A stretch of 64,000 bases of DNA from Candidatus Hodarchaeota archaeon (GTDB lineage: Archaea; Asgardarchaeota; Lokiarchaeia; Sigyniarchaeales; SOKP01). The stretch covers positions 135,532 to 199,531 of the forward strand of contig JBHLKM010000002.1 of NCBI GenBank assembly GCA_048886685.1, written 5' to 3'. Shown piece after piece: positions 12,888 through 55,500 of the stretch. A program made the position numbers and the translations under genes. The notes under the pieces were generated by a model. The model saw nothing but the letters and a program-made list of their open reading frames with translations. It had not been told where the DNA came from and searched no databases. Positions within the stretch are counted from its first letter, which is position 1. Every line of letters starts with the position of its first letter.

Positions 12888-13039
12888 AGGTAAGGGAAAG
12901 AATAATCCGCACCAAAGTAATAAAATCAGGGAGAGAATTAAACTCATAGAGTTTAATAGAGGGCATAATCAAGGCACGAGATGCTCGCAACCTTTGAAAT
13001 CCAATGTTTATGCAGATTATTAGTTAAATTTCCCTTCCT
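12888..13039 (-). ncRNA. Candidate structured non-coding RNA of unknown class
   Basis: Nested closing stems (AGGAAGGGAAA/UUUCCCUUACCU; AAUAAUCUGCA/UGCGGAUUAUU) enclosing two hairpins; mismatches become G-U wobbles only on the minus strand. Confidence 0.45.
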
Positions 13040-27664: not shown

Positions 27665-28405
27665 TTAATAATCATGCAGAACATTATCAATAGAGAGGAT
27701 AAATCCAAGTAAGATCCGTCTATCAGTTTCATTATCTAGTATTCTCAATGCGTATGTATCCTTAAAATCTAATAATCCGCCAAGAAAAATATCTCTCCAC
27801 CTATCAGCTTTCTCAATTTCTGCAATTAAATTCCCTGACATATCTGTAACTTTATACGACCACCCCATAAATTTTCCTTGTGCTTCGAAGTATCTTTTGC
27901 CATTAACATCTTCCAAGAAAAATTTTGGACGGAAAACAGAAGTTATTTTTTTCTTAATTCGTGCTATCATATTTCCATAAGGGTCTTTTAAATCCTGTGC
28001 ACCCCGAGCTGATACAATCTTTGAGTGAATAGTAGCAGCTATAGTGCCATCTAACTCAAGTAATTCGACTCTGCGTCTTATACTTAAGATAACTCTTCTC
28101 ATTTTCCCAATAACTTGATTGTTTTCATCTAAAATGTCGCCAGAACCCCAATCCCAATATTTTTAAAGAATTCAGACGAGTTGTCGGGATTTTTCTTTAA
28201 GGATATAATAATTGCGATTGAGATCGAATAATCCACCTGGGCGATCGTATGGCTCAAAACCCAATGTTGTTACTGGTCTGGCTGTTGCAACTGTAGTGAC
28301 AACCTCTCTCTGTCTAGGTGCAGAGGAGACTGGTGAACCACACTTTTCACAGAAGTTTTGAGTTTCGGGATCTTTAATTTCCGCTCCACAATCTTTACAA
28401 TACAT
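27665..28405 (-). CDS. Zinc-ribbon + LURP-one/scramblase (Tubby-C-like) protein, split by a 30-nt intron (exons 28405-28193 and 28162-27665; 236 aa spliced)
   Basis: ORFs 28172..28405 and 27665..28102 are in the same frame; removing 28163-28192 gives YYILKEKYWDWGSGDILDENNQVIGKMRRVILSIRRRVEL, a LURP-one-like first repeat; C-terminal KDTYALRI...ILLGFILSID. Confidence 0.8.
28163..28192 (-). other. Predicted 30-nt BHB mRNA intron in the scramblase-like gene
   Basis: AAAUCCCGACAACUCGUCUGAAUUCUUUAA; central helix AAAG/CUUU, bulges AA^A and AA^A, inner stem with 7 of 9 positions paired, loop AACUC; contains in-frame UGA and UAA. Confidence 0.75.
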
Positions 28406-32998: not shown

Positions 32999-34339
32999 AT
33001 GCTAACTAGGACAAACGCACTAATTTCAGAGGAATTCATCTTTTATATTGATGTAATCACCGATTTTCTTAAGAAAAAATCTATAATAAAAGCAATTAGT
33101 TCTTTCATTAAAGAAAAAGACAAGTTTAACGCTTTAAGTTCATATGGTATAGTAATCTTTCAAAAGGATGATAATCCAGTCAATGAATATGATATAAAAG
33201 ATTCTGAAAATGTATTAAATACTCTTGATGGTGCATGGGAGACACGAGAAAAAACACAGAGTTTTCTAGAAAATGGTTTATATGAAATTCTAGCTTATAT
33301 TTTTAGAAAAAGCAGAGAATCTAGGAAAAATTATCGGATCATTATTATTTCAGATACACCTAGTAAATTATCTGAAGATTATTATAACGCACTTTATGAT
33401 TTACTAATTAAGGCAAAAAAGTTTTCAGCTTTTATTGACATAATTCGAGTCGGAAACAAAAAGTTCTATGAAGATGATGTAAAACTCAAGGTTATATCTA
33501 GTGAAACTCATGGTGGTATGTTCTATTGCCAAGATGAAAAACTCTTGCAAAATATTTTAGGTTCACTAGTTCAAAATAAAAAAGAATTTAAGGTGATAAA
33601 AACAGATGAAATAGATCATGTTTTAGTTGAAGATAAGGTATTTTATGAGAGGCTAGCCGTTGATCTTATAAGTTTATCACCTGATGATGAAGAAATCTGT
33701 ACAATATGTGAACAAGAATTATGTCCTATTTGTGAGATTCATTCCGATGAGATACATAAGTGTTTTAATTGCAATACCAAATTTCATAGTTGCTGTGCAG
33801 CGAAATATTCCATTGTTAAAAATATCGGCTTTCGTCACATTTTTAGATGTCCACAATGCGAAACTCTATTAAAATTAGACGAGGAATATGTGAATCTGGT
33901 CTATGAAGAAGATTTAGAGGAAGAATATCCTGAGATCGAAGCAGAAAGAGAAATTCCCCCCGAACCTAAAGAAATAGAATACGAACAAGAACAAATTGAA
34001 GAAGAAACTTATATAGAAGAAGAGGAACTAGAAAAAGAGGAACTAGAAGAAGAAATTAGACCAGAAGGATTAACACCACCTGCTCTTTCTCCAGAAGCAA
34101 CAAAAAAGGTAAAAGTTGGAGGATTCTTTGGAAAAGAAATCGAGATTAAGTTGAAAAAAGAATCAATGGCAATTCCTGAAGCTTCACAACCAATTGAAGA
34201 AACGCAAAAACCAGTTTCTATTACCACCTTAAAACCACCAAGAAAGAGGGGAGAAGCTTCAATTAAATTATGTAAAATCTGTGGTGCTACACTCCAAAGT
34301 GCGAAAAATTGCCCTATGTGTGGGGCTAAAGTTGATTAA
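32999..34339 (+). CDS. vWA-like domain + PHD/RING-like zinc finger + C-terminal zinc ribbon (paralogue 2)
   Basis: Same architecture and shared motifs (ENGL, DTPS.LSEDY..AL, DDVKL, GGFFGK) as the upstream gene. Confidence 0.7.
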   Translation: MLTRTNALISEEFIFYIDVITDFLKKKSIIKAISSFIKEKDKFNALSSYGIVIFQKDDNPVNEYDIKDSENVLNTLDGAWETREKTQSFLENGLYEILAYIFRKSRESRKNYRIIIISDTPSKLSEDYYNALYDLLIKAKKFSAFIDIIRVGNKKFYEDDVKLKVISSETHGGMFYCQDEKLLQNILGSLVQNKKEFKVIKTDEIDHVLVEDKVFYERLAVDLISLSPDDEEICTICEQELCPICEIHSDEIHKCFNCNTKFHSCCAAKYSIVKNIGFRHIFRCPQCETLLKLDEEYVNLVYEEDLEEEYPEIEAEREIPPEPKEIEYEQEQIEEETYIEEEELEKEELEEEIRPEGLTPPALSPEATKKVKVGGFFGKEIEIKLKKESMAIPEASQPIEETQKPVSITTLKPPRKRGEASIKLCKICGATLQSAKNCPMCGAKVD

Positions 34340-41407: not shown

Positions 41408-42739
<1,332 letters not shown>

Positions 42740-55171: not shown

Positions 55172-55500
55172 GAGACGAGTGAGATATGGAGCTGACGGTG
55201 GGTTTAACCCGCTGAGGAACTTCGCCCCACTCTCCAAGTAAGGAGTAGATAACTACTACGATGAGAATCGTATTTTAGCAACTGAAACGACACTGCCTTT
55301 CTACATATATTAATGACTTGGATAAGCCAAAGAAATTGTAGGAAGGAATGGTTGGAACGAGCTAAAACCTTGGTGTAAGGCCAAATGAAAGTGATGAGGT
55401 ACTTGGAGCGAACTTTAGGTAGGCCGCATAGTTTGATGCTCCAACTGTTATCTGGTGACAGGTACAGTACAGAAGGGCGGGTATATATCTCAAGCGTCTT
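55172..55500 (+). ncRNA. rnpB: RNase P RNA (archaeal)
   Basis: P1 GAGACG..UGAGAUAU/AUAUCUCA..CGUCUU; P2 GGAGC/GCUCC; P3 hairpin CGGUGGG..CCCGCUG; GAGGAACUUCGCCC pairing with ACAGAAGGGCGGGU (P4); CUGAAAC and GGAAC conserved-region-like motifs. Confidence 0.88.

What the first reader, a model, noticed from the sequence alone, without database searches (positions are those of the whole stretch)
28150..28205. Canonical BHB intron rejoins two ORFs into one zinc-ribbon/LURP-one scramblase-like gene
Seen: CTT AAA GAA|aaatcccgacaactcgtctgaattctttaa|AAA TAT TGG GAT TGG. The insert holds UGA and UAA in frame. An AAAAAU direct repeat makes the junction ambiguous, but the register with a perfect 4-bp helix (AAAG/CUUU) gives two AAA bulges closed by U-A pairs on both sides. 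Excision gives a continuous 236-aa protein with ...YILKEKYWDWGSGDILDENNQVIGK.... Inference: second independent member of the intron family; the AAAAAU repeat could alternatively be a trace of the insertion mechanism (target duplication).
Basis: partly seen in the sequence, partly recalled or inferred. Interest (0 to 1): 0.86.

Follow-up and report, generated by a model that had tools for sequence, protein, structure and literature searches.

The report
Mini-intron inside a Lokiarchaeial protein gene
A 30-base tRNA-style (bulge-helix-bulge) intron interrupts an otherwise intact protein gene of a Lokiarchaeial (Asgard) archaeon; about 80 relatives show it is conserved in shape and often gained or lost, whereas the literature I could search reports such protein-gene introns for only one gene (cbf5) of distant archaea.

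Summary
On the minus strand, 30 nt (28163-28192) carrying in-frame TGA and TAA split a Zn-ribbon/LURP-one gene. Removing them gives a 236-aa protein.

The intron reading is strongly supported by comparison, but not by RNA data.
- 53 distinct intronless orthologues are exactly colinear with the spliced product.
- 8 orthologues carry a 27-30 nt insert at this site (A). 9 carry a 30-nt insert 15 nt downstream (site B).
- Both sets keep a 4-bp helix, two 3-nt bulges and an inner hairpin through compensatory changes.
- Cutting after the second bulge base restores the frame every time.
- Carriers' exons are under strong purifying selection (dN/dS 0.02-0.06, dS about 1).
- Carriers are scattered on the gene tree, so monophyly is rejected.
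- The genome encodes two EndA subunits and RtcB, and has many tRNA introns of similar size.
- A second intron of the same design, in purA of this window, was verified the same way.

No RNA run was available, so splicing itself is inferred. The outer helix is only 2 bp, which makes this a relaxed motif. The AAAAAU repeat is not a general feature.

Earlier first-stage notes of this scan flag many similar inserts elsewhere in this genome. I tested only purA. The closest known case is the crenarchaeal cbf5 intron.

The parts
28193..28405 (-). Exon 1: 71 codons, zinc ribbon plus linker, ending ..NRNYYILKE
   Evidence: Pfam PF13240 Zn_Ribbon_1, E 1.4e-5, 25.2 bits against a cut-off of 25. Conserved in orthologues.
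28163..28192 (-). 30-nt bulge-helix-bulge intron with in-frame TGA and TAA. Layout: 1 bulge nt, 9-nt stem arm, 5-nt loop, 9-nt stem arm, 4-nt central-helix strand, 2 bulge nt.
   Evidence: Absent from 53 distinct colinear orthologues. Present with conserved structure in 7 other orthologues. Present in the DNA contig of an independent study.
27665..28162 (-). Exon 2: 165 codons plus stop, LURP-one-related / Tubby-C-like domain, starting KYWDWGSG
   Evidence: Pfam PF04525 LOR, E 3.1e-8, 33.9 bits against a cut-off of 24.5. Orthologues are named LURP-one-related family protein by NCBI. dN/dS is 0.02-0.06 between carriers.
28195..28198 (-). Central helix, exon strand (AAAG)
   Evidence: Pairs with 28165-28168. 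AAAG/CUUU, AAGG/CCUU and AAGG/CUUU are seen among carriers; AAAG/CCUU is never seen.
28192..28194 (-). 5' bulge AAA; predicted cut between 28193 and 28192
   Evidence: Sequence. Cutting between the 2nd and 3rd bulge residue is the rule described for cbf5 introns (PMC2738675) and gives the colinear product.
28169..28191 (-). Inner hairpin: stem 28191-28183 with 28177-28169 (7 of 9 pairs), loop 28182-28178
   Evidence: Seven of the nine stem pairs show changes on both sides across carriers.
28165..28168 (-). Central helix, intron strand (CUUU)
28162..28164 (-). 3' bulge AAA; predicted cut between 28163 and 28162
   Evidence: colinearity.
28159..28161 (-). Exon-2 bases next to the 3' bulge: AA (28161-28160) pairs with UU (28200-28199) as a 2-bp outer helix; 28159 is the T that ends the second AAAAAT copy
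   Evidence: helix 1: 100% of cells paired. All 8 carriers keep the codons ATC CTT upstream, against 19/53 and 9/53 of intronless orthologues.
42670..42699 (-). Second member of the family in this window: a 30-nt intron splitting the catalytic Asp codon of purA
   Evidence: 10 of 30 genus orthologues carry a 30-31 nt insert at this site and 20 are intronless and colinear. RNAalifold recovers the GGGG/CCCU central helix and the exon helix.

Best explanation
This is an archaeal endonuclease-type (bulge-helix-bulge) intron in a pre-mRNA. The gene is transcribed with the 30-nt insert. The exon-1 tail (AAAG) pairs with the intron's CUUU to make the 4-bp central helix. That helix is flanked by two AAA bulges, a 9-position intron hairpin and a short exon-exon helix. 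The heterotetrameric splicing endonuclease (two EndA paralogues encoded in the genome) would cut after the second base of each bulge. RtcB would join the exons, giving mRNA for a 236-aa Zn-ribbon/LURP-one protein and probably a 30-nt circular intron. Unspliced RNA can only give a 77-aa Zn-ribbon peptide. What is shown: the insert and its geometry, exact colinearity with intronless orthologues, structure-preserving evolution, purifying selection on both exons, patchy phylogenetic distribution, and the presence of the enzymes. What is inferred: cleavage and ligation in vivo, and their timing relative to translation. The element looks like a tolerated, fast-turning-over passenger. A regulatory role is possible but nothing here shows it.
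For: Sequence and frame. Colinearity: 53 distinct intronless orthologues all read ..LKEKYWDWGSG... Insert lengths at this site are 27, 28, 29 and 30 nt, so the insert cannot be coding. Site A structure: 88.5% of cells paired, 8 pairs changed on both sides, 0/500 shuffles reach this, and slid registers give 39-63%. Site B: 98.4% paired, 0/500 shuffles, and every change in the intron strand of the central helix keeps pairing with UGGG. RNAalifold finds the site-B motif unaided. dN/dS between carriers is 0.02-0.06 with dS about 1. Synonymous codons next to the junction are fixed in carriers: ATC CTT .. GAA in 8/8 against 19/53, 9/53 and 39/53. Carriers are not one clade: p-AU 2.6e-5 for A and 1e-8 for B, and well-supported sister pairs differ. 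Two EndA paralogues and RtcB are present. ARAGORN reports 35 tRNA genes and calls introns in 21 of them, some of those calls doubtful; introns are typically 16-33 nt. The insert is present in DNA contigs of another study. In a motif-free comparison of syntenic DNA from 5 relatives, the only clean ORF-splitting inserts of about 30 nt were these two introns, and only they plus one unclear non-coding case showed the full geometry. Asgard EndA is reported as the broad-specificity (alpha-beta)2 type (PMC5829648).
Against: There is no RNA evidence of any kind. The window's own copy has a weak outer helix (2 A-U pairs) and two mismatches in the inner stem, and its minimum-energy fold is a slipped 8-bp helix rather than the bulge-helix-bulge register. 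How a ribosome is kept from translating unspliced RNA is unknown. The Pfam LOR match starts after the junction, so it does not itself span it.
Confidence: 0.86

Rival explanations
1. Conditional splicing as a switch. The intron is real, but splicing is regulated, so the cell chooses between a 77-aa Zn-ribbon-only peptide (unspliced) and the full-length protein.
For: The unspliced ORF 28172..28405 is intact. Exon-1-only products are annotated as proteins in several relatives.
Against: Closely related species do without the intron. The stop position differs among carriers. Nothing suggests a sensor.
Confidence: 0.08
2. Dead gene: an insertion scar or small palindromic mobile element has disrupted the gene and it is not spliced.
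For: In-frame stops are present. The hairpin-shaped insert resembles miniature palindromic elements. Annotators call truncated proteins.
Against: 17 carriers in independent assemblies all keep both exons open. dN/dS is 0.02-0.06 with synonymous divergence near saturation. The exact 4-bp/3-nt geometry is conserved by compensatory change, which a dead gene would not maintain.
Confidence: 0.03
3. Translational bypass (ribosome hopping, as in T4 gene 60) over the 30 nt.
For: In the window copy, AAA codons lie at both edges and a hairpin lies between them.
Against: In orthologues (for example L023, and all site-B and purA introns) there is no matching take-off and landing codon that would give the conserved peptide. 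What is conserved is the endonuclease geometry, not codon identity.
Confidence: 0.02
4. Assembly or sequencing artefact.
For: None specific.
Against: The same insert is in contigs of several runs, including another study, with 0 gaps. Homologous inserts occur in many independent assemblies.
Confidence: 0.01

Closest known systems
cbf5 pre-mRNA intron of Crenarchaeota (Watanabe 2002; Yoshinari 2006; Yokobori 2009, PMC2738675)
   Same: A short intron (16-44 bp there, 27-30 nt here) inside a protein-coding gene. It is bounded by a relaxed bulge-helix-bulge motif and cut between the 2nd and 3rd bulge residues. It occurs in organisms with hetero-oligomeric EndA and has been lost in some lineages.
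   Different: Different phylum (Promethearchaeota/Lokiarchaeia) and a different, non-housekeeping gene. There are two alternative intron sites 15 nt apart in one gene. Turnover is much faster, with sister species differing. It appears to be one of several such introns in the same genome (purA verified here). For cbf5, splicing was shown by cDNA and by enzyme assay; here it was not.
Archaeal tRNA introns, including the intron-rich tRNA genes of some Asgard classes (PMC11291895; bioRxiv 10.64898/2026.10.13.758758)
   Same: The same motif, the same size range as this genome's own tRNA introns, the same enzymes, and repeated gains with no known route of arrival.
   Different: The host RNA is an mRNA. 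The exon-exon helix is made of coding sequence and is constrained by codons. Failure to splice gives a truncated protein rather than a dead tRNA.
Unconventional HAC1/XBP1 mRNA splicing in eukaryotes (Ire1 cut, RtcB or Trl1 ligation)
   Same: A short non-spliceosomal intron in an mRNA, removed by a protein endonuclease with RtcB-type ligation, and changing the protein made.
   Different: The endonuclease is different (Ire1 against EndA) and so is the recognition motif (paired stem-loops). It is a regulated stress response, and no regulation is shown here.

Membership tests
Archaeal bulge-helix-bulge (EndA-spliced) intron | Two 3-nt bulges on opposite strands separated by a 4-bp helix | tested here: met
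   AAAG/CUUU with AAA bulges. The central helix is 100% paired in 8 site-A and 9 site-B carriers.
Archaeal bulge-helix-bulge (EndA-spliced) intron | Flanking helices on both sides of the motif (h and h') | tested here: met
   The inner hairpin has 7/9 pairs in the window copy and 80% of cells paired across carriers. The outer helix is only 2 bp (UU/AA), 100% conserved. This makes it a relaxed form rather than a strict one.
Archaeal bulge-helix-bulge (EndA-spliced) intron | Cutting between the 2nd and 3rd bulge residues yields the functional, colinear product | tested here: met
   The spliced frame equals that of 53 intronless orthologues. The rule is taken from PMC2738675.
Archaeal bulge-helix-bulge (EndA-spliced) intron | Structure maintained by compensatory substitutions | tested here: met
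   Eight pairs (site A) and five pairs (site B) changed on both sides; 0/500 shuffles reach the observed values. RNAalifold agrees unaided.
Archaeal bulge-helix-bulge (EndA-spliced) intron | Host encodes the splicing endonuclease and an RtcB ligase | tested here: met
   Two PF01974 genes score 102 and 72 bits; RtcB scores 558 bits.
Archaeal bulge-helix-bulge (EndA-spliced) intron | Excision observed in RNA (junction reads, circular intron) or cleavage by EndA in vitro | not testable with these tools
   No run on record as RNA holds the stretch.
cbf5-type pre-mRNA intron | Located in cbf5 at the catalytic Asp codon, in Desulfurococcales/Sulfolobales | tested here: not met
   The host gene is a Zn-ribbon/LOR protein of Promethearchaeota. 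It works like the cbf5 intron but is not a member of that lineage of introns.
LURP-one-related (PF04525) protein | Score above Pfam's gathering threshold | tested here: met
   33.9 bits against 24.5 for exon 2; 31.7 bits for the intronless orthologue L003.
Scramblase (PF03803) | Score above Pfam's gathering threshold | tested here: not met
   17.1 bits against 25.4. 'Scramblase-like' holds only at the fold or clan level.
Programmed translational bypass (T4 gene 60 type) | Matched take-off and landing codons giving the conserved peptide | tested here: not met
   Absent in L023 and in the site-B and purA inserts.
Group I / group II self-splicing intron | Ribozyme core recognisable by Rfam; length of hundreds of nt | tested here: not met
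   The insert is 30 nt. The only Rfam hit in the window is RNase P RNA.

The most novel reading that the evidence does not exclude
This genus of Lokiarchaeia carries a population of stereotyped mini-introns of about 30 nt (1 + 9 + 5 + 9 + 4 + 2 nt) that enter and leave protein-coding genes on the time-scale of species divergence. One gene has two alternative sites 15 nt apart, sister species differ, and each genome has its own set. Routine mRNA splicing by the tRNA machinery, and hence some separation of splicing from translation, would then exist in close prokaryotic relatives of eukaryotes.
Probability: 0.5. Interest if true: 0.92.

Novelty: new member of a known kind. Interest (0 to 1): 0.78.

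Why it matters
In the literature I could search, endonuclease-type introns in archaeal protein genes are documented only for cbf5 of Crenarchaeota. Four consequences would follow if this one is spliced.

1. The phenomenon extends to Asgard archaea and to ordinary genes. It was verified in two genes of one 64-kb window, and unverified first-stage notes flag many more in this genome.
2. It offers a natural system for asking how such introns are gained and lost. There are two sites in one gene, 17 carriers among about 70 distinct orthologues, and sister species that differ.
3. It raises the question of how an archaeon avoids translating unspliced mRNA. That bears on ideas linking introns to the separation of transcription and translation in eukaryote origins.
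4. It exposes a systematic annotation error. Public records list the halves as separate or truncated proteins, or read the insert through with TGA as Trp.

Tried and rejected
**RNA evidence.** No RNA holder was listed for the stretch, so junction reads could not be sought.

**DNA contigs.** Laying them shows only that the insert is in the DNA.

**Genome-wide census.** I combined bulge-helix-bulge geometry with ORF rescue, using mis-cut controls (3' cut shifted by 1-5 nt). The correct cut rescued no more ORF pairs than the shifted cuts at any stringency. The method cannot count introns, so I give no genome total.

**Spliced-form proteins.** I looked for a full-length protein identical to any carrier's spliced product in the 5.8-billion-protein collection and in six clusters. 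None was 100% identical.

**246-aa homologues with 10 extra residues at the junction.** These are a site-A intron read with TGA as Trp by a gene caller, not coding sequence.

**Single-sequence folding of the window copy.** The z-score is -0.45 over 76 nt and -2.83 over 49 nt. The minimum-energy structure is a slipped register, so this copy alone would not have been convincing.

**Pfam continuity across the junction.** The LOR match starts 10 residues after it.

**Target-site duplication.** Rejected as a general feature, because the site-B and purA introns have no flanking repeat.

**A third candidate at 12965-12995.** The alignment to relatives is not a clean indel, there is no ORF and no Rfam hit. 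It is left open.

**Literature.** Eight searches found no report of endonuclease-type introns in Asgard protein genes. Subscription journals are not covered, so prior publication cannot be excluded.

Full report
**1. What is in the sequence**

The feature lies on the minus strand. An ORF starts at ATG 28405 and encodes a C4 zinc ribbon and a linker. After ..NRNYYILKE it runs into ten codons (28192..28163) that contain TGA and TAA. The same frame then continues with KYWDWGSGDILDENNQVIGK.. to a stop at 27667-27665. Removing exactly 28163-28192 gives 71 + 165 = 236 residues.

Exon 1 matches Pfam Zn_Ribbon_1, just at threshold. Exon 2 matches LURP-one-related (LOR) clearly above threshold. Scramblase scores below threshold.

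AAAAAT is present at both edges, 30 nt apart, so the junction is ambiguous over seven positions. All of them give the same product.

- AAAG (28198-28195) pairs with CUUU (28168-28165).
- Both bulges are AAA.
- The intron body is a hairpin with 7 of 9 pairs and a 5-nt loop.
- Two U-A pairs close the exon side.

On its own this copy is not compelling. Its minimum-energy fold uses a slipped 8-bp helix, and the z-score is unremarkable over 76 nt.

**2. Organism and machinery**

- Orthologue-bearing records are titled Promethearchaeota / Promethearchaeia, that is, Lokiarchaeia-type Asgard archaea.
- The window is contig C2:135532-199531 of a 4.4-Mb, 47-contig assembly. Its GC content is 31%.
- The genome encodes two splicing-endonuclease paralogues of about 200 aa and one RtcB. 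This fits the (alpha-beta)2 endonuclease with broad substrate range reported for Asgard archaea (PMC5829648).
- ARAGORN reports 35 tRNA genes and calls introns in 21 of them, some of those calls doubtful. Introns are mostly 16-33 nt and hairpin-shaped, the same size and style as the insert studied here.

**3. Comparative test of colinearity**

I searched 60 related genomes and the species-representative genome collection with exon 2. After removing duplicates this gave about 70 distinct orthologous junctions.

- Fifty-three are uninterrupted and read ..Y(Y/F)(I/V)LKEKYWDWGSG.., exactly the predicted spliced product.
- Eight, including the window, carry an insert at the same place (site A). The lengths are 27, 28, 29 or 30 nt, so several shift the frame and the insert cannot be coding.
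- Nine carry a 30-nt insert 15 nt further downstream, between TGGGAT and TGGGG (site B).
- No orthologue has both.
- A ninth site-A variant turned up in a metagenome contig. There a gene caller had read its TGA as Trp and produced a 246-aa 'protein with ten extra residues'. Other public entries list the 72-76-aa exon-1 peptide or a truncated exon-2 protein separately.

**4. Structure conservation**

I aligned the inserts with 15 nt of exon on each side.

Site A:
- 88.5% of cells are paired.
- Eight pairs change on both sides.
- No shuffle out of 500 reaches the observed pairing or covariation.
- Sliding the 3' partner by 1-3 columns drops pairing to 39-63%.
- The central helix is AAAG/CUUU, AAGG/CCUU or AAGG/CUUU. 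It is never AAAG/CCUU.

Site B:
- 98.4% of cells are paired.
- The coding strand UGGG is fixed by the Trp and Asp codons.
- The intron strand varies as CCCA, CCUG, CUCG and CUCA. Every variant still pairs with UGGG.
- RNAalifold, given no constraint, returns the 4-bp helix, the 3-nt bulge and the 9-bp hairpin.

Single-sequence folds of several orthologues give the same motif as their minimum-energy structure. In all 17 cases, cutting after the second base of each bulge restores the frame. That is the rule described for the crenarchaeal cbf5 intron (PMC2738675).

**5. The host gene is alive**

- Between pairs of carriers, exon 2 has dN/dS of 0.02-0.06, with synonymous divergence near 1. Both exons are open in the carriers, so a pseudogene is excluded.
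- Synonymous positions beside the site-A junction are frozen in carriers. ATC CTT .. GAA occurs in 8 of 8 carriers, against 19/53, 9/53 and 39/53 of intronless orthologues.
- This is expected if exon bases must keep the outer helix, central helix and bulge. It is also expected if the intron can only persist in that context.

**6. Distribution**

- On a maximum-likelihood tree of exon 2 (69 rows), carriers of each site are scattered. At least six changes of state are needed for each site.
- Monophyly of A carriers, of B carriers, and of both together is rejected (p-AU 2.6e-5, 1e-8 and 7e-8).
- Several well-supported sister pairs differ in state, including one A/B pair.
- A short gene tree cannot separate repeated precise loss, repeated gain at permissive sites, and recombination between alleles. 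Either way the turnover is fast.
- Some A introns share stem and loop motifs, which suggests common descent for at least part of them.

**7. Not an artefact, and not alone**

- Contigs from four sediment and mangrove DNA runs cover the site without gaps. One is from a different study and differs at 12 positions.
- The purA gene 14.5 kb away has a 30-nt insert (42670-42699) splitting its catalytic Asp codon.
- Of 30 genus orthologues of purA, 10 carry a 30-31-nt insert at that site and 20 are intronless and colinear. The consensus fold shows a GGGG/CCCU central helix plus a strong exon helix.
- The genomes carrying the purA intron are not the same as those carrying the LOR-gene introns, so each genome has its own set.
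- I also ran a motif-free comparison of syntenic DNA from five relatives against the window. It listed 69 length differences between adjacent conserved ORF segments, and nearly all were intergenic.
- The only clean ORF-splitting inserts were the site-A and site-B introns. Full geometry (4/4 central pairs and at least 6/9 inner pairs) was seen only in these and in one unclear non-coding case. The purA intron is missed by that method because its first exon is only 14 codons.

**8. Mechanism and rivals**

The best explanation is EndA cleavage at both bulges followed by RtcB ligation. This yields the full-length mRNA and a small intron, probably circular.

Rivals:
- Ribosomal bypass is unlikely. 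In other carriers and at site B there are no matching take-off and landing codons that would give the conserved peptide.
- A dead gene or an assembly error is excluded by sections 5 and 7.
- A regulatory switch between a 77-aa Zn-ribbon peptide and the full protein cannot be excluded, but nothing supports it. Close relatives manage without the intron.
- The AAAAAU repeat is best read as a by-product of A-rich bulges and A-U closing pairs. Site-B and purA introns lack any such repeat.

**9. What is missing**

No RNA run holding this DNA was listed, so splicing is inferred and not observed. My attempt to count such introns genome-wide from geometry plus ORF rescue failed, because shifted-cut controls scored as high as the true cut. 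First-stage notes of this scan list many further candidates in this genome, including PFK, thiolase, uL11, uvrB, cdhA and thioredoxin. I tested only purA.

**10. Novelty**

The mechanism is that of the cbf5 pre-mRNA intron of Crenarchaeota, so this is a new member of a known kind.

What I found no report of, in eight searches of the held literature:
- the lineage (Asgard);
- the ordinary host genes;
- two alternative sites within one gene;
- the rapid presence/absence turnover;
- the uniform 30-nt design shared by unrelated genes.

Recent work describes heavy intron loads in Asgard tRNA genes, but not in mRNAs (PMC11291895; bioRxiv 10.64898/2026.10.13.758758).

Noticed in passing
window 42670-42699 (minus strand): A 30-nt intron of the same design splits the catalytic Asp codon of purA. 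10 of 30 genus orthologues carry a 30-31-nt insert there and 20 are intronless and colinear. The carrier genomes differ from those of the LOR-gene introns.
   Followed up: yes
L006:1966-2025, L037:1498-1557, L008, L021, L062, L097, L025, L031, L082 (orthologues): A second intron site in the same gene, 15 nt downstream (TGGGAT|TGGGG). It is always 30 nt with a UGGG/CCCA-type central helix and a 9-bp hairpin showing many compensatory changes. It is never found together with the site-A intron.
   Followed up: yes
public protein records P0046, P0083, P0122, P0126, P0131, P0154, P0127/P0128 (locus L160): Intron-bearing copies are annotated as separate 72-76-aa zinc-ribbon proteins plus truncated LOR proteins. 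In one case the result is a 246-aa protein, because the gene caller read the intron's TGA as Trp.
   Followed up: partly
window 12900-12995 (minus strand): A conserved non-coding stretch, with 53 nt 96% identical in one relative and 90% in another, that has box-like UGAG/CUGA motifs. Next to it is a 31-nt segment absent from G003 that scores 4/4 central pairs and 6/9 inner pairs. There is no ORF and no Rfam match, and the alignment is not a clean indel. It may be a small RNA with its own intron.
   Followed up: partly
window 55176-55496 (plus strand): Archaeal RNase P RNA (Rfam RF00373, 131.6 bits), full length.
   Followed up: no
whole genome G000: ARAGORN finds only 35 tRNA genes and calls introns in 21 of them (some calls doubtful). 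Typical introns are 16-33-nt hairpins. More tRNAs with non-canonical introns are probably missed.
   Followed up: partly
window 34004-34051: A 48-nt in-frame length difference relative to G017 lies inside a repetitive, Glu-rich coding stretch. It has no bulge-helix-bulge geometry and looks like ordinary repeat expansion.
   Followed up: no
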